In this document: piece by piece, positions 49,672 through 58,360 of the stretch
Layout of the letters: each line of letters begins with the position of its first letter
Numbering within the stretch: position 1 is the first letter of the stretch
Source: a virus
Lineage: Duplodnaviria; Caudoviricetes
Length of the DNA stretch: 64,000 nucleotides
Direction: 5' to 3' (one strand)
Virus record (IMG/VR): IMGVR_UViG_3300025018_000001
Notes under the pieces: generated by a model
The model's database searches: none
The model's input: only the letters and a program-made list of their open reading frames with translations
Told to the model about the DNA's origin: nothing
Translations under genes and position numbers: made by a program

Positions 49672-49761
49672 AGCTGTACCAGCTTTTATAGTGGTACAGC
49701 TTTTTTGAAGGAGCAAGGCCCATTTCGGGCAACGCTCTAAAACTCCAATTAGGAGCTTGTT
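49672..49761 (+). promoter_or_regulatory. Early regulatory cassette 1
   Basis: AGCTGTACCA-N10-TGGTACAGCT hairpin (TAGTGGTAC 49689), T-run, GAAGGAGC, CAACG, CTCC-AATTA-GGAG over the RBS. Confidence 0.8.
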
Positions 49762-49980
49762 ATGAAGATTGAAATCACCCAGGACGACCGTGGTTTTGAC
49801 GTTGTCACTATAGACGGCGTAGTAGCCTCAACTGACGTTGCGGCCATCATATTAGATGCTGTTGATTGCATCGAGACTTGCCAGTACAATGAGGCTAACG
49901 CCTCTTGGGGGCCAGAAGACGGTGGTAGCTGCCCATGTGGTGGTGTTACTTGCGATGGGACCTGTGAGCCACCGTTCTAA
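49762..49980 (+). CDS. Early Cys-rich small protein
   Basis: 72 aa, C..C..CPC..C..C. Confidence 0.75.
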   Translation: MKIEITQDDRGFDVVTIDGVVASTDVAAIILDAVDCIETCQYNEANASWGPEDGGSCPCGGVTCDGTCEPPF

Positions 49981-49987
49981 TAAAAAT

Positions 49988-50084
49988 CAGGGCCAGCTTC
50001 CATAGTGGTCCTGTTTTTTTGAAGGAGCTAGCATATCGCTGGCTCTAAATCCCCATCGTGCCTAAAGGCACAAAGGAGTCTGTC
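49988..50084 (+). promoter_or_regulatory. Early regulatory cassette 2
   Basis: CAGGGCCA..TAGTGGTCCTG T7, GAGCTAGC-ATATC-GCTGGCTC, hairpin, AAAGGAG. Confidence 0.85.
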
Positions 50085-50417
50085 ATGGCTAAAGTAAAAC
50101 ACGTTGTTAAACTCCGTGGCGTTGTTTCTACCTCTAACGGTATGGTTGTTGCCAAAACCCATCAGGCAAACGAGGTAGAGGAGTTCCACGGTGACACCCC
50201 TGAAGGGGTTACCCCTTTCGTAGCCAGCTACTTTAAGTTTGCTGGTTACAAAGATGAGAGAACTGGCGAGTACTGCGCCATGTTCTTGACTACACCCAAG
50301 GGCAGGTATGAACTTAAGTTCAATGCTGGCGCTGGTGTATGGCAATGTACTGCTAATGGCCGCAAGCTTCTTGTGACCATTAAGAAGGTGGTGGGTGAAC
50401 TCCGCTACTGGGCGTAA
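50085..50417 (+). CDS. Early hypothetical protein
   Basis: 110 aa from MAKVKH, RBS-supported start. Confidence 0.8.
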   Translation: MAKVKHVVKLRGVVSTSNGMVVAKTHQANEVEEFHGDTPEGVTPFVASYFKFAGYKDERTGEYCAMFLTTPKGRYELKFNAGAGVWQCTANGRKLLVTIKKVVGELRYWA

Positions 50418-50422
50418 CCCTG

Positions 50423-50517
50423 AAACTGTACCAGCTTTCATAGTGGTACAGTTTTTTTGAGGGAGCTGGCATATCGCTGGCTCTATAATCCAACGCCTTC
50501 GGGCAAAGGAGTTTGTT
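50423..50517 (+). promoter_or_regulatory. Early regulatory cassette 3
   Basis: AACTGTACCA..TAGTGGTACAGTT T-run, GAGCTGGC-ATATC-GCTGGCTC, CCAACGCC-TTCG-GGC-AAAGGAG. Confidence 0.88.
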
Positions 50518-51012
50518 ATGATTACTGTTAAACTTACCGGCCACCTCTACGTTGGTAGTGCAATTGAGTCCTCTTCTGATTGTGGCACTTGTGACGGCGC
50601 ACGTTGCGAGGGATGTCACAAGCGTTGGGTATTCGAGGGCACCACCTACTACAGCTACGAGTCTGCCCTAGAAGCAGAGGCTAACAGCCTGTCTGCTTGG
50701 CAGTCACTGGTTCCTGGTGAGGAGCATCCCTCCAATCCTGAGTTCACCCTTAACGCTGATGGAGAGCTTGCAGCTCTTTGTTGGAGTTGGGAGAAGGGTG
50801 ACCATCTGGTGGTATGTAACCCAGATGCAGCAGCATACGACGCATTGTATGCTAAGGCGCTCAAGGCTACCGAGTTGTGGGTATCCTGCCCTTGTGTTGA
50901 CAAAGCAGACCATTGCTATGCCAACGACTGCAGCATCATGGGATGCAATGATTCCAGATGCAGATACGAGGTTGATTGTAAACAGCGCAAGGAGCGCAAG
51001 TGGTACATGTAG
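50518..51012 (+). CDS. Early Cys-rich (metal-binding) protein
   Basis: 164 aa, CGTC..CEGC and a C-terminal Cys/His cluster. Confidence 0.8.
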   Translation: MITVKLTGHLYVGSAIESSSDCGTCDGARCEGCHKRWVFEGTTYYSYESALEAEANSLSAWQSLVPGEEHPSNPEFTLNADGELAALCWSWEKGDHLVVCNPDAAAYDALYAKALKATELWVSCPCVDKADHCYANDCSIMGCNDSRCRYEVDCKQRKERKWYM

Positions 51013-51020
51013 TACCGAGA

Positions 51021-51115
51021 CAGGGCCAGCTTGTATAGTGGTCCTGTTTTTTTGAAGGAGTTGACATATCGTCAGCTCTAAAACCCAACGCTGCATAGCA
51101 GCAAAGGAGATTCAC
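51021..51115 (+). promoter_or_regulatory. Early regulatory cassette 4
   Basis: CAGGGCCA..TAGTGGTCCTG T7, GAGTTGAC-ATATC-GTCAGCTC, CCCAACGCTGC-ATA-GCAGC-AAAGGAG. Confidence 0.88.
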
Positions 51116-51634
51116 ATGAATACTTTAAACATCCACGCTGGCTGGCTCAAGAGACTCAATGCATTGTCTGGTATGTCTTATGTTACCATCGACGCTGCAG
51201 GTGCAAGAGACTATGCCAAGCGAGCCTCAGCTGACGGCTATAAGCTTGTGCTAGTTAATGACACCTTAGGTGTCTACGGCTACGAGCACCCTGAGGGCTT
51301 TAGCTGGTTGTTCTACAAGATTATCAACTCCGACCGCATGGTGGCTTGTCATGCTGGTGGCAGCAAAGACGGCTTGCGGGCTAACATTGCTGAGGAGCTG
51401 GGATCATTGTGGTATCTTAAGTGCAACAGCACTCCAGCACCACGTGACCCGTTCGTAACGACCTACCATCCTGTCGCTGGATGGAAAGCAGTCCTTATGA
51501 CTTGGGATGCTGATTGTAACACGTACACCCCTGAGCAGACGGGATACTTCGGTCACAAAGACGAAGCGGGTGCTATTAAGGAGGCCAAGGACTGGGCCAA
51601 GTGCGAGGAGATTGAGTACCGGGCTAGAGCGTAG
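51116..51634 (+). CDS. Early hypothetical protein
   Basis: 172 aa. Confidence 0.8.
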   Translation: MNTLNIHAGWLKRLNALSGMSYVTIDAAGARDYAKRASADGYKLVLVNDTLGVYGYEHPEGFSWLFYKIINSDRMVACHAGGSKDGLRANIAEELGSLWYLKCNSTPAPRDPFVTTYHPVAGWKAVLMTWDADCNTYTPEQTGYFGHKDEAGAIKEAKDWAKCEEIEYRARA

Positions 51635-56753: not shown

Positions 56754-56764
56754 GGAGCTTTATC

Positions 56765-56992
56765 ATGTCATCAGAAGAATTAACATGCTCAGTTTGTGAA
56801 CGAGCTGGTTGTGAATGTATTTGTGATTTGGTTGTTAATAAAGAAGATTATGATGCCGTTGTACATCTGGCAAAGAAACTTCTTAAAGGCGCCAACATCT
56901 GTATGGAAGAACAATCTTTAATCCAGCCTTTCTTCTCTATTGTAAAGGACAATGCTGCTATCATCGGTAAGTTGAATCTATTCGATGAATAA
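56765..56992 (+). CDS. Early Cys-rich small protein
   Basis: CSVC..CECIC, AAGGAG RBS. Confidence 0.7.
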   Translation: MSSEELTCSVCERAGCECICDLVVNKEDYDAVVHLAKKLLKGANICMEEQSLIQPFFSIVKDNAAIIGKLNLFDE

Positions 56993-56994
56993 CA

Positions 56995-57040
56995 AGACTC
57001 CCTGCCAGGCACTAGCCTGGTGGGGTTTCTTCATCTTTTT
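56995..57040 (+). terminator. Intrinsic terminator
   Basis: AGACTCCCTGCCAGGC-ACTA-GCCTGGTGGGGTTT followed by a T-rich run. Confidence 0.65.
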
Positions 57041-57123
57041 TAAAAAACCCTGGAGCTTCGTGAAGAACTCTTGTGGTAGTTCGAACGTGGGGACCCTGCA
57101 GCTTCGGGCCGAGTACCGTGCTA

Positions 57124-57210
57124 GTACCATCGCTGTTTGGGGATGGGGATTAGTGGTACGGGTTTTTTGAGTATAGTCTATGTTTATCCACCAATTTAAA
57201 GGAGTTTGCT
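57124..57210 (+). promoter_or_regulatory. Early regulatory cassette 11 (degenerate)
   Basis: GTACCA...GGGGATGGGGAT-TAGTGGTAC (57161) GGG T6 GAG...AAAGGAG. Confidence 0.65.
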
Positions 57211-57450
57211 ATGAAACTAGTTCAGCTTGTTGTATTCATTTCTGTGGTTCTTTACGGCCAGTTCGTTTTCGCGGCTATATCTTACGAGAAAATCAGCTGT
57301 CTTGTGGGCGATTCAGTTATGTTCTTGACCGTTCCTATGGACAGTAACTGGGACAATTTGCAAATGGAGGATGCGGGCAAAGCAGTATGCGAGTCAATGG
57401 CGTTGGTAAGAATAATTCCGGGGCAGGTACTTGATGCAGAGGAGGAGTAA
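57211..57450 (+). CDS. Small exported protein
   Basis: Signal-peptide-like N-terminus, 79 aa. Confidence 0.65.
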   Translation: MKLVQLVVFISVVLYGQFVFAAISYEKISCLVGDSVMFLTVPMDSNWDNLQMEDAGKAVCESMALVRIIPGQVLDAEEE

Positions 57451-58299
57451 ATGGAAGCATGGACGGCGCAGTACCGTTATACTGGACCCTATAGACTGGA
57501 TGTTACGGTCAAAGGTCAGGACATGACGGGTAAGTTATTCGCACCTACTTGGGATATGGTCATGAATTATAAGGCATCCAAGGGAACGGAAGCGGATAAA
57601 AAGATTTACATTGAGCAGTACCATAAGGTAATTCTTAATGTAATCAAAAATCATCGCAAGGAATGGGATGAATTGCTGGCACGCAAGTACGTGGTGATTG
57701 TGTGCTTTTGTAAGGCAGGTGAGTTTTGTCATAGACACCTGCTAATGCATTACCTTACACAGTATGGTGCTGTATGCCATGGGGAGATTACTGACTTCTC
57801 ACGCTGGAGCAAAGAACGTAAGGTGATTAGTGAATTCAAAGGCCAATACGGTTGGGCATCCAACTTCGCGCCGTGTAAGTTCACGCATGAGAACATTGAA
57901 TATGATTCTACCGAGACATTTTATCAGGCAATGAAGTATGGGCCTAATGATATGTTGAAGATTAAGGTGGATAATAAATTCATTGAAGTCAATGCACGTG
58001 AGTATATTTCCAAACTACCGGCGGGTAAAGCCAAACGCATGGGCAAGAAAGCAAAACTGCCTTGGAACTGGGACACCCTGCGAGTGGATGTTATGGAACT
58101 TGCGTTGAATTACAAGTATGACCAGCCTTACTACAAAAGTCTGTTGCTTAGAACGGACGATGCCTTGATGATTGAAGGCAATTGGTGGCATGACAATTTT
58201 TGGGGAGACTGCTCCTGCCCTAAGTGCGAGCATATCAAAGGTGCAAATACGCTTGGTCAGTTGACTATGCGTAAGCGTGATGCACTACGGAAAGTTTAA
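57451..58299 (+). CDS. DUF488-like + NADAR (YbiA) fusion protein
   Basis: N-half FAPTW..VCFCK..FCHRHLL. C-half FKGQYGWASNF..STETFYQAMK..AKRMGK..W..VMELAL..K..LLRT..LMIEGNWWHDNFWG..GANTLGQLTM. Confidence 0.85.
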   Translation: MEAWTAQYRYTGPYRLDVTVKGQDMTGKLFAPTWDMVMNYKASKGTEADKKIYIEQYHKVILNVIKNHRKEWDELLARKYVVIVCFCKAGEFCHRHLLMHYLTQYGAVCHGEITDFSRWSKERKVISEFKGQYGWASNFAPCKFTHENIEYDSTETFYQAMKYGPNDMLKIKVDNKFIEVNAREYISKLPAGKAKRMGKKAKLPWNWDTLRVDVMELALNYKYDQPYYKSLLLRTDDALMIEGNWWHDNFWGDCSCPKCEHIKGANTLGQLTMRKRDALRKV

Positions 58300-58301
58300 C
58301 A

Positions 58302-58360
58302 TAGTGGTACTGCTCTTTCGGGAGTAGTATCACACTCAATTCTAACGAAGGAGAATTTGT
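58302..58360 (+). promoter_or_regulatory. Early regulatory cassette 12 (variant)
   Basis: TAGTGGTAC on the 5' arm of GTGGTACTGCTCT-TTCG-GGAGTAGTATCAC; AAGGAG RBS. Confidence 0.6.

What the first reader, a model, noticed from the sequence alone, without database searches (positions are those of the whole stretch)
49672..58360. Array of about 12 conserved terminator-promoter-RBS cassettes, each heading an early gene or mini-operon
Seen: copies at 49672, 49988, 50423, 51021, 51641, 52022, 52381, 53123, 53373, 55079, 57124 and 58302. Each has a hairpin whose 3' arm keeps TAGTGGT(A/C)C while the 5' arm and loop vary with G:U-type pairs, then T5-7 GA. Most add a second hairpin, CCAACG and a third hairpin abutting AAAGGAG. 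No sigma70 -35/-10 pair with normal spacing is evident, although such promoters are clear in the other arm. Established analogies: PeSL cassettes of T4-type phages, the SPO1 host-takeover module, and motif-type early promoters of phages with virion RNAPs. Inference: these are the cognate promoters of the TMP-fused RNAP, and they double as recombination points for gene shuffling.
Basis: partly seen in the sequence, partly recalled or inferred. Interest (0 to 1): 0.85.

Follow-up and report, generated by a model that had tools for sequence, protein, structure and literature searches.

The report
Overlapping terminator–promoter gene cassettes
An uncultured ~230-kb groundwater phage heads about a dozen small early genes with one conserved cassette: a terminator hairpin whose invariant arm looks like a phage-specific promoter, then a structured mRNA leader; it resembles Thermus phage P23-45 but has not been tested by experiment.

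Summary
TAGTGGT(A/C)C occurs 20 times in the window against 1.2 expected. All 12 listed copies exist. Six more intergenic boxes lie at 49193, 49259, 60076 and 60183 (+) and at 48702 and 48646 (-).

In the hairpin copies the box is the fixed 3' arm. All 17 wobble pairs come from changes in the 5' arm. Box-to-G spacing is fixed at 9 nt although the T-run varies from 5 to 7. Fifteen of 35 boxes in four related phages lack a hairpin, including tandem pairs at the heads of both divergent arms.

Downstream lie two covarying RNA hairpins: one at the predicted 5' end, one abutting AAAGGAG.

Best reading: an intrinsic terminator overlaps a phage-RNAP promoter (box at -18 to -10, T-rich spacer, +1 G) and is followed by a stabilising or translational leader.

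The giant tape-measure protein does carry a two-barrel RNAP module. The closest relative also encodes a separate 1085-aa RNAP, so the polymerase that reads the box is unresolved. No start site has been mapped.

Gene content between cassettes is shuffled among relatives, as with T4 PeSLs.

I class this as a new variant of a known kind. Another reader of this scan noted the same box on this genome.

The parts
49672..49764 (+). Cassette 1: hairpin with box 49689-49697, T6, G at 49707, long H2 variant, RBS, ATG 49762
49986..50087 (+). Cassette 2: hairpin (box TAGTGGTCC 50003-50011, compensated G:C), T7, +1 G 50021, H2, CC..H3..AAAGGAG, ATG 50085
50423..50520 (+). Cassette 3: box 50441-50449, T7, G 50459, H2, H3, ATG 50518
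51019..51118 (+). Cassette 4: box 51036-51044 (TCC form), G 51054, H2, CCAACG, H3, ATG 51116
51641..51743 (+). Cassette 5: 14-bp hairpin with UUCG loop, box 51661-51669, G 51679, H2, H3, ATG 51741
52020..52114 (+). Cassette 6: 14-bp hairpin, box 52040-52048 (TCC form), G 52058, long H2 variant, ATG 52112
52380..52483 (+). Cassette 7: 15-bp hairpin, box 52402-52410, T5, G 52420, H2, H3, ATG 52481; heads a 3-gene unit
53123..53200 (+). Cassette 8: short hairpin, variant box TTGTGGTAC 53132-53140, G 53150, 5-bp hairpin starting at +1, ATG 53198
53373..53455 (+). Cassette 9: box 53389-53397, G 53407, 5-bp hairpin at +1, CCAACG, H3, ATG 53453; heads a unit that includes the DprA-like and cell-wall hydrolase genes
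55078..55178 (+). Cassette 10: box 55099-55107, G 55117, H2, H3, ATG 55176; heads a unit running to the plain terminator at 57000
57124..57213 (+). Cassette 11: G-rich upstream (GGGGATGGGGAT), box 57151-57159, T6, G 57169, no H2 or H3, ATG 57211; lies ~100 nt after a separate box-less terminator
58302..58363 (+). Box 58302-58310 without upstream arm or T-run; G at 58320; hairpin downstream; ATG 58361 (518-aa ORF)
49193..49277 (+). Tandem hairpin-less boxes (49193-49201, 49259-49267) at the head of the + arm, before the first + gene (ATG 49379); each preceded by a variant TAGGGGCAC (49181, 49231)
   Evidence: orthologous pairs in G006 and G001
60076..60201 (+). Tandem G-rich-flanked boxes (60076-60084, 60183-60191) before ATG 60268; an orthologous tandem pair is conserved in G006
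48628..48702 (-). Two minus-strand boxes (48702-48694 exact; 48646-48638 with one mismatch) in the divergent region, pointing to the minus-arm gene that starts at 48492
57000..57035 (+). Plain intrinsic terminator without box (control: termination in this arm does not need the box)
53861..53897 (+). Internal H3-type hairpin + AAAGGAG without box or terminator; similar ones before ATG 55593, 56035 and 56255. H3 is therefore a separable translation-initiation module
8855..11557 (-). RNAP-like module (aa 1800-2700, DYDGD at aa 2280) of the >=5651-aa tape-measure ORF 2-16954

Best explanation
Each cassette is a compact, self-contained expression unit made of separable modules.

**(1) Terminator.** A GC-rich RNA hairpin plus a U-tract ends the upstream transcript. 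It is an ordinary intrinsic terminator.

**(2) Promoter overlapping the terminator.** The descending arm of that hairpin is the invariant 9-mer TAGTGGT(A/C)C. Read as double-stranded DNA, it is the recognition element (about -18 to -10) of a promoter for a phage-encoded two-barrel RNA polymerase.
- The T-rich 9-nt spacer, which is the terminator's T-run, serves as the melting region.
- Transcription starts at the conserved G of 'GA'.
- Terminator and promoter therefore share the same ~20 bp.
- A transcript that starts at this G lacks the 5' arm of the hairpin, so it is not terminated there.

**(3) 5'-terminal hairpin H2.** The new mRNA opens with a hairpin of 9 bp from +4, or 5 bp from +1, with conserved loop A-N-N-U-C. 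It probably protects the 5' end.

**(4) Translation module.** Next come an A-rich linker, then CC-AAC-[H3]-AAA-GG. This places a small hairpin directly before the Shine-Dalgarno sequence AAAGGAG and may partly mask it.

**Box without hairpin.** Where nothing upstream needs terminating (the arm heads), or where a separate terminator is present (57000), the box stands alone without a hairpin.

**Recombination.** Because the cassettes are near-identical repeats, they also act as homology patches. Through them, cassette-plus-gene units are gained, lost and reordered.

**Shown:**
- the anatomy;
- the one-sided constraint on the box;
- the fixed spacing;
- the RNA covariation;
- the mosaic gene content.

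**Inferred:**
- promoter activity;
- the start site;
- which polymerase reads the box (the tape-measure-fused enzyme is slightly favoured, by analogy with P23-45);
- early timing.
For: - **Enrichment and strand bias.** The box occurs 20 times against 1.2 expected. All 16 intergenic copies in the + arm are co-oriented with the genes.
- **One-sided constraint.** In 17 hairpins the box never changes to make a wobble pair; the 5' arm does so 17 times. Beyond the box both sides vary.
- **Fixed spacing.** The pattern is box-N9-G in 28 of 35 sites from four phages. In all 20 T-run cassettes the T-run of 5-7 T ends exactly at +9.
- **Hairpin-less boxes.** Fifteen of 35 boxes lack the hairpin. These include tandem pairs at the heads of both arms and a box about 100 nt after a separate box-less terminator.
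- **Conservation across relatives.** The same box and layout occur in G001, G006, G007 and in metagenomic fragments. Their orthologous early proteins are only 30-65% identical to those of the window.
- **H2 is an RNA structure on the sense strand.** 96.5% of cells are paired, 7 of 9 pairs change on both sides, and GU/UG pairs are abundant; 0/500 shuffles reach this. It begins 0-3 nt after the predicted +1, directly after a terminator. The simplest source of such an RNA is initiation at that G.
- **No sigma70-type promoter.** None is seen on the + strand here, although a perfect one exists in the other arm.
- **The phage encodes suitable polymerases.** QKLD[FY]DGD is invariant in 29 relatives. 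The fold's top 11 hits are largest subunits of multisubunit RNAPs (Z 9.2-11.1), and P23-45 gp96 scores Z 7.5.
- **Published precedent.** The P23-45 tape-measure-fused RNAP uses 14 short conserved promoters within 9 kb. It also has terminator hairpins with a conserved sequence, and one of them directly abuts a promoter (PMC10770324).
Against: - No 5'- or 3'-end data exist for this uncultured phage, so promoter activity and the start site are inferences.
- In P23-45 the conserved sequence inside the terminator hairpins is a termination feature, and the promoter is a separate motif about 30 nt downstream. By strict analogy the box could be a terminator signal only.
- A semi-conserved CTCTAAAAYCC lies at about that position in the cassettes.
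- Two head-of-arm boxes (49193 here and its G006 orthologue) lack the T-rich spacer and the G.
- A second RNAP exists in the closest relative. More distant relatives that carry both enzymes show no box array. No polymerase-to-motif correlation could therefore be drawn.
- The Foldseek match of the RNAP model was not significant. Support for the fold comes from VIA-align and from the catalytic motif.
Confidence: 0.6

Rival explanations
1. The box is only a polymerase-specific termination or pause signal, as proposed for the conserved 26-nt terminator motif of P23-45. On this reading transcription starts elsewhere. It starts either only at the head of the arm, or at the semi-conserved CTCTAAAAYCC element between H2 and H3.
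For: - Twenty of 35 boxes sit in terminator hairpins followed by T-runs.
- P23-45 terminators carry a conserved sequence (CTAGCCCC) in the same hairpin position. Its promoters lie about 30 nt further on.
- An A-rich conserved stretch occupies that place in the cassettes.
Against: - Fifteen boxes have no hairpin. These include pairs at the heads of both arms, where there is nothing upstream to terminate.
- Box-less terminators work in the same arm.
- The box-to-G distance is fixed even where no T-run is present.
- H2 is an RNA structure lying between the terminator and the alternative promoter. It would not be transcribed from that promoter.
- CTCTAAAAYCC is absent from cassettes 8, 9, 11 and 12 and from the hairpin-less sites.
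Confidence: 0.17
2. The box is the operator of a DNA-binding regulator (phage or host), or the recognition element of a host alternative sigma factor. On this reading the host RNA polymerase transcribes the arm.
For: - The divergent control region at 48.6-49.1 kb is packed with degenerate box-like repeats in both orientations (TAGTAGTA, TAGTAC, ATGGTAC). This looks like a protein-binding array.
- The box contains the GTAC palindrome.
- The host evidently uses sigma70-type promoters, so host RNAP is active on this genome.
Against: - The strict orientation and the fixed distance to a purine start fit a promoter better than an operator.
- No -35/-10 pair with workable spacing accompanies the box.
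- The sigma54 geometry (GG-N10-GC) is not met: here it is GG-N12-G and the GC is missing (read directly from the sequence).
- The A at position 2 of a putative -10 hexamer NATAGT is missing in at least four copies.
Confidence: 0.13
3. The cassettes are RNA-processing and stability punctuation in one long polycistronic transcript, like the RNase III sites between T7 early genes. On this reading the box is a nuclease or RNA-binding-protein site in the RNA.
For: - All three hairpins are RNA-level structures on the sense strand.
- The conserved H2 loop (A-N-N-U-C) suggests recognition by a protein.
Against: - Hairpin 1 followed by a run of 5-7 U is a canonical terminator, not a processing site.
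- Hairpin-less boxes could not be recognised as structured RNA.
- The minus-strand boxes in the divergent region face the other way, as promoters would.
Confidence: 0.07

Closest known systems
Pre-early transcription units of Thermus phage P23-45 (tape-measure-fused virion RNAP gp96 plus non-virion RNAP gp64; Chaban et al. 2024, PMC10770324)
   Same: - A giant tape-measure protein carries a two-barrel RNAP module with D(F/Y)DGD.
- A second single-chain RNAP is encoded separately.
- About a dozen short, strongly conserved promoter-like motifs are clustered in 8-9 kb at the head of one arm.
- Terminator hairpins with T-runs carry a conserved sequence in the loop and 3' arm.
- At least one terminator directly abuts a promoter.
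   Different: - The RNAP module shows no detectable sequence similarity to gp96; the link is fold-level only (Z 7.5).
- The motif sequence differs: TAGTGGTMC-N9-G here, TTATTCCTTTA(+1) there.
- Here the conserved terminator arm and the candidate promoter are the same element. In P23-45 they are usually about 30 nt apart.
- The catalytic motif sits at aa 2280 of a roughly 7500-aa protein, against aa 779 of 5002.
- The genome is a mesophilic, low-GC, ~230-kb one from an aquifer.
- The structured H2/H3 leaders are not described for P23-45.
PeSL (promoter-early stem-loop) cassettes of T4-type phages (Arbiol et al. 2010, PMC2839356; Comeau et al. 2014, PMC4122927)
   Same: - Small composite terminator/promoter repeats precede variable, mostly ORFan early genes.
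- Cassette-bounded gain, loss and reordering of genes is seen between relatives.
   Different: - PeSLs carry host sigma70 early promoters. No such hexamers are found here.
- Here the promoter-like element lies inside the stem rather than after it.
- The leader hairpins H2 and H3 are additional modules.
Hairpin promoters of the coliphage N4 virion RNAP
   Same: A virion-delivered polymerase is associated with conserved hairpins upstream of early genes.
   Different: - N4 uses a T7-like single-subunit enzyme that needs a DNA hairpin with a 5-7-bp stem and a 3-nt loop on the template strand (from my own knowledge; PMC4496689 was listed but I did not read it).
- Here the stems are 8-15 bp and the loops 4-7 nt.
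- The wobble pairs put the folding on the sense strand.
- Fifteen boxes have no hairpin.
5'-terminal stem-loop mRNA stabilisers (E. coli ompA leader, T7 phi10 leader)
   Same: The hairpin starts within 0-3 nt of the predicted 5' end.
   Different: - The function is untested here.
- The conserved pentaloop suggests an additional specific ligand.
- This comparison rests on my general knowledge, not on a tool result.

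Membership tests
Intrinsic (factor-independent) terminator | GC-rich RNA hairpin immediately followed by a U-tract on the sense strand | tested here: met
   Ten to eleven cassettes qualify. Stems are 8-15 bp, MFE is -10 to -26 kcal/mol, and T5-7 follows. G:U pairs favour the sense strand.
P23-45-type phage-RNAP transcription units | Phage encodes a tape-measure-fused two-barrel RNAP | tested here: met
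   - The ORF has a PhageMin_Tail domain and hits tape-measure PHROGs.
- QKLD[FY]DGD is invariant in 29 relatives.
- The fold matches RNAP largest subunits (Z 9.2-11.1) and gp96 (Z 7.5).
P23-45-type phage-RNAP transcription units | Short conserved motif ending at mapped transcription start sites, clustered in the first-entering arm | not testable with these tools
   - The motif and its clustering are shown.
- No RNA ends are available: no listed run that holds the stretch is on record as RNA, and the two runs labelled RNA-Seq are kept only as contigs and are probably DNA.
- The order of DNA entry is unknown.
P23-45-type phage-RNAP transcription units | Promoter consensus TTATTCCTTTA (virion RNAP) or TCTAGGGGC (non-virion RNAP) | tested here: not met
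   The box is TAGTGGTMC. Only the two variant copies TAGGGGCAC, at 49181 and 49231, resemble the non-virion core.
PeSL cassettes of T4-type phages | Stem-loop followed by a host sigma70 early promoter | tested here: not met
   No + strand site exceeds 9/12, and there is no enrichment over shuffles. The hexamer spacings that can be derived from the T-run are 19-21 nt (read from the sequence).
PeSL cassettes of T4-type phages | Cassettes bound indels, replacements and reorderings of variable genes between relatives | tested here: met
   - The cassette gene sets of the window, G006, G001, G007, L128, L129 and L132 are mosaic, and the gene order is permuted.
- A contig in run X18 joins 50460 to 53864 with 17 other letters between.
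N4-type hairpin promoters | An obligatory small DNA hairpin on the template strand, read by a T7-like virion RNAP | tested here: not met
   - Fifteen of 35 boxes are hairpin-less.
- The wobble pairs lie on the sense strand.
- The polymerase is of the two-barrel type.
Sigma54 (-24/-12) promoter | GG-N10-GC with TGGCAC-N5-TTGC | tested here: not met
   The box gives GG-N12-G and no conserved GC. Hairpin-less copies have no TTGC.

The most novel reading that the evidence does not exclude
One 9-nt word may work in two nucleic-acid forms for one injected enzyme.
- As RNA, it is the closing arm of the hairpin that stops the tape-measure-tethered polymerase.
- As DNA, a few bases further on, it is the promoter on which the same polymerase restarts.

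This would give stop-restart transcription of a string of insulated one-gene units while the genome is still being threaded into the cell. It would be a DNA-phage counterpart of the gene-end/gene-start signals of non-segmented negative-strand RNA viruses. The same repeats would also make the early region a plug-and-play gene-shuffling array.
Probability: 0.3. Interest if true: 0.8.

Novelty: new variant of a known kind. Interest (0 to 1): 0.62.

Why it matters
**A testable promoter candidate.** Two-barrel single-chain phage RNA polymerases are very diverse, and few of their promoters are known. This array gives a precise candidate (TAGTGGTMC-N9-G). It belongs to a previously unstudied, environmentally widespread lineage of ~230-kb phages whose tape-measure proteins reach about 7500 aa and carry an RNAP module.

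**Possible tool use.** The cassette is compact: about 20 bp hold both terminator and promoter, followed by a defined leader. That makes it attractive as an orthogonal expression part if the polymerase can be produced.

**A parallel with P23-45.** If the overlap is functional, it shows how a virion polymerase can transcribe many insulated units in series. It may also explain why P23-45 terminators carry a conserved sequence.

**Evolution of early regions.** The mosaic gene content shows that PeSL-like modular shuffling is not confined to T4-type phages or to host-type promoters.

Tried and rejected
- **Public phage genomes.** Megablast and blastn of the array against the phage collection gave no match.
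- **Whole genome.** None is held for this window.
- **Sequence similarity of the giant protein.**
  - phmmer of its first 2600 aa against PDB gave nothing.
  - Pfam and PHROGs found nothing in the N-terminal half.
  - Foldseek of the RNAP model against PDB had no hit at E <= 0.001, although RNAP chains led the list.
- **The 518-aa early protein.** It has no relatives in viral contigs.
- **Motif hunting in relatives.** K-mer searches in G004 and G005 picked up only coding repeats.
- **More distant relatives G005 and G009.**
  - Both have a syntenic, GC-elevated early arm but no box array and no other obvious repeated motif.
  - ATGCGCAT in G005 was a false lead.
  - The AGTGGTAC hits in G009 are Ser-Gly-Thr codons.
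  - Co-variation between polymerase and motif could therefore not be tested.
- **The second RNAP of G001.**
  - It has 44-46% homologues in G009 and G010.
  - No match was found in G005, G003 or G002; the last two are fragments.
  - Neither enzyme can be singled out.
- **Upstream of the G001 second RNAP gene.** No box lies directly before it.
- **RNA evidence.** No listed run that holds the stretch is on record as RNA. Two wastewater runs labelled RNA-Seq are kept as contigs, are probably DNA and hold related phages. They cannot show transcript ends.
- **Rfam and tRNA scans.** Nothing was found in 48-64 kb or in the window.
- **RNAalifold on the whole-cassette MAFFT alignment.** It recovered only hairpin 1, because H2 and H3 were misaligned. 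I analysed them separately.
- **Chance matches set aside.**
  - The three minus-strand boxes at 21059, 26350 and 38963, and the box at 53804, lie in coding sequence (Val/Ile-Ser-Gly-Thr) and are taken as chance.
  - The metagenome hits L130 and L133 look unrelated.

Full report
**What is in the sequence**

The window has two divergent arms.
- A minus-strand arm (2-48492) has about 35% GC. It encodes the terminase, head and tail genes, a PhoH/PIN protein and one open frame of at least 5651 aa.
- A plus-strand arm starts at 49379, has 41-49% GC and is made of small, mostly ORFan genes.

The nonamer TAGTGGT(A/C)C occurs 20 times in the window against 1.2 expected. Sixteen copies lie on the + strand between 49193 and 60191. 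Fifteen of these are intergenic or at gene ends, and all are co-oriented with the genes.

I add four + strand copies: 49193, 49259, 60076 and 60183. I also add two minus-strand copies in the divergent region (48702, and 48646 with one mismatch) that face the minus arm.

**Anatomy of the cassette**

In ten to eleven copies the box is the 3' arm of a strong hairpin with a stem of 8-15 bp. The hairpin is followed by five to seven T and then GA. Three features show that the box is more than half of a stem.

1. *The constraint is one-sided.* In 17 hairpins from three phages, every one of the 17 wobble pairs keeps the box and changes the partner. The only box polymorphism (A/C at position 8) is compensated (T:A to G:C). 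Immediately outside the box, both sides vary freely.
2. *The distance to the following G is fixed.* It is 9 nt in 28 of 35 sites. In all 20 T-run cassettes the run ends exactly at +9, although its length varies from 5 to 7.
3. *Many boxes have no hairpin.* This holds for 15 of the 35.
   - They include tandem pairs at the heads of both arms, where nothing upstream needs terminating.
   - They include the pair before the gene at 60268.
   - They include the box at 57151, which follows a separate, box-less terminator at 57000.

**The leader**

Downstream of the G lie two RNA structures.

- *H2.* It is a 9-bp stem beginning at +4 with the loop A-N-N-U-C. In some cassettes it is a 5-bp stem beginning at +1.
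  - On a gap-free alignment of 16 copies from five sources, 96.5% of cells pair and 7 of 9 pairs show changes on both sides.
  - No shuffle of 500 reaches the observed values.
  - Two positions are mostly G:U or U:G, so the sense strand is the one that folds.
- *H3.* It sits directly before AAAGGAG and is flanked by CC...GG, which can pair with the first two G of the Shine-Dalgarno sequence.
  - My script called 22 hairpins with 15 distinct stems; four of these calls were wrong.
  - Swapping the arms between copies destroys the pairing.
  - H3-type hairpins also precede internal genes that have no box (53861, 55548, 55992, 56218). H3 is therefore a separable translation module.

No Rfam family matches the region.

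**Relatives**

The phage is uncultured. The stretch is held by many aquifer metagenome runs and one cold-spring run.

The RNAP-like part of the giant protein has 29 relatives in IMG/VR. Almost all lie within frames open across the whole fetched locus, and the frames reach 7488-7722 aa where I measured them.

Three IMG/VR contigs and three short metagenomic contigs carry the same box and cassette layout.
- G001: RNAP module 80-81% identical to the window's. The contig breaks inside the array.
- G006: a syntenic contig with a complete array.
- G007: the contig ends at the first cassette.
- L128, L129 and L132: short metagenomic contigs.

The early proteins of G006 are only 30-65% identical to those of the window, yet the box is unchanged. 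The tandem pairs at the arm head and before the 60268 orthologue are both conserved.

More distant relatives (G005 and G009; RNAP modules 36% and 49% identical) keep the synteny and the GC-elevated early arm. They have long operons and no box array.

**The polymerases**

The giant frame contains a tape-measure core (Pfam PhageMin_Tail and PHROG tape-measure families). About 1200 aa upstream of that core lies DYDGD, inside the motif QKLD[FY]DGD, which is invariant in all 29 relatives.

An AlphaFold model of aa 1800-2700 (pLDDT 75.6) gave no significant Foldseek hit. By VIA-align its top eleven matches are all largest subunits of multisubunit RNA polymerases (Z 9.2-11.1). The phiKZ and AR9 non-virion polymerases score Z 8.0, and P23-45 gp96 scores Z 7.5.

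The closest relative G001 also encodes a separate 1085-aa protein with LDFDGD and weak Rpb1-like hits. It has 44-46% homologues in G009 and G010. An unchecked note of this scan reports such a gene 41 kb beyond this window. The lineage thus has two candidate polymerases, as P23-45 does.

**How it most likely works**

Thermus phage P23-45 is the only studied system with a tape-measure-fused RNAP.
- That enzyme starts at 14 copies of a short conserved motif within 9 kb.
- It stops at hairpin/T-run terminators that carry a conserved sequence.
- In one case the terminator runs straight into the next promoter (PMC10770324).

The array here has the same logic, but the two signals are merged. I read the box as the upstream recognition element of a phage-RNAP promoter, the T-rich nonamer as the melting region, and the G as +1.

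The same DNA, once transcribed from upstream, forms the terminator. A transcript born at the G lacks the 5' arm and so escapes termination. It opens with H2, a 5'-terminal hairpin of the kind known to stabilise mRNAs (my general knowledge).

The strongest indirect argument for initiation at this G is positional. H2 is demonstrably an RNA structure, yet it lies directly after a canonical terminator.

I put this model at about 0.6. Within it, I favour the virion enzyme only slightly, by position at the arm head and by analogy with P23-45.

Two variant boxes (TAGGGGCAC at 49181 and 49231) resemble the P23-45 non-virion promoter core TAGGGGC. This is a lead pointing the other way and nothing more.

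**Rivals**

- *A purely terminator-specific signal (0.17).* This is the strict P23-45 analogy. It does not explain the hairpin-less boxes, the fixed spacing or the position of H2.
- *An operator or a host alternative-sigma site (0.13).* The dense box-like repeats in the divergent region hint at this. However, no workable -35/-10 pair or sigma54 geometry exists.
- *RNA-processing punctuation (0.07).* This does not fit a canonical terminator, nor boxes that face both ways.

**Recombination**

A gene-by-gene comparison of seven arrays shows a conserved frame: the first gene, the DprA-like/hydrolase block, the DUF488-NADAR gene and the 518-aa gene. Between these, cassette-led genes are present, absent or reordered.
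- The homologue of the window's 110-aa gene is the first cassette gene in G007. It is the second listed gene in L132.
- L129 carries the homologues of the window's 76-aa and 61-aa genes in the opposite order.

A contig in run X18 joins 50460 (the end of box/T-run/GA of cassette 3) to 53864 (the CCAAC-H3 module before the gene at 53895), with 17 other letters between. The same run also holds the window-like arrangement.

This is the PeSL pattern of T4-type phages (PMC2839356, PMC4122927) with a non-sigma70 promoter. It does not show the mechanism.

**Verdict**

- The promoter role is likely but unproven.
- The responsible polymerase is unresolved.
- The shuffling role is supported by comparison.

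Relative to what is known, this is a new variant of a known kind: terminator-promoter cassettes for a phage-encoded polymerase. Its unusual features are the complete overlap of the two signals and the covarying two-hairpin leader.

Noticed in passing
window 2-16954 (-); G001, G005, G009, G002: The tape-measure/RNAP frame is open for 7488-7722 aa in four relatives. The window holds only its first 5651 aa. QKLD[FY]DGD is invariant in 29 IMG/VR relatives.
   Followed up: partly
L118:7334-10588 (G001 23334-26591, +): A second candidate single-chain two-barrel RNAP of 1085 aa carries GLDFDGD. It has 44-46% homologues in G009 and G010. None was found in G005, whose record is 89% complete.
   Followed up: partly
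window 48600-49130: The divergent control region is packed with degenerate box-like words in both orientations (CATAGTAGTA, ATAGTAC, TATGGTACT, CTGATTCAATAAAA x2). It could be a regulator-binding array, decoy promoters or an origin.
   Followed up: no
window 49181-49189 and 49231-49239: Variant boxes TAGGGGCAC lie just upstream of the two head-of-arm boxes. G006 and G001 have TAGGGGGCA and TAGGGGGAG at the matching place. The core resembles the P23-45 non-virion RNAP promoter TAGGGGC.
   Followed up: no
window 49400-61500 versus the rest; G005 200-213 kb; G009 92-101 kb: The early arm has 41-49% GC in a genome of about 35% GC. The same local rise is seen in two distant relatives that lack the cassettes.
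   Followed up: no
window 57124-57150, 60060-60182; G006 and G001 equivalents: A subclass of boxes is preceded directly by GGGG(N2) and followed by G/T-rich sequence. Between 60095 and 60180 lie GGGGATGGGG-type repeats. These may mark a second promoter class or timing class.
   Followed up: no
window 57451-58299 (+): A 282-aa early protein combines DUF488-N3a and NADAR domains, suggesting ADP-ribose-related, possibly counter-defence, chemistry. Other genes in the arm are a DprA-like protein (54094-54648) and a SleB-type cell-wall hydrolase (54662-55072).
   Followed up: no
window 45763-45791 (-): A perfect TTGACA-17-TATAAT lies on the minus strand. The host RNAP is therefore probably of the sigma70 type and is used for part of the other arm.
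   Followed up: no
L034 (G004 4.3-8.4 kb): There are long tandem 15-nt repeats (AGGTTGGCCTCTCTAAGATTGGCC...) in a relative's genome. They are probably a pentapeptide-type coding repeat.
   Followed up: no
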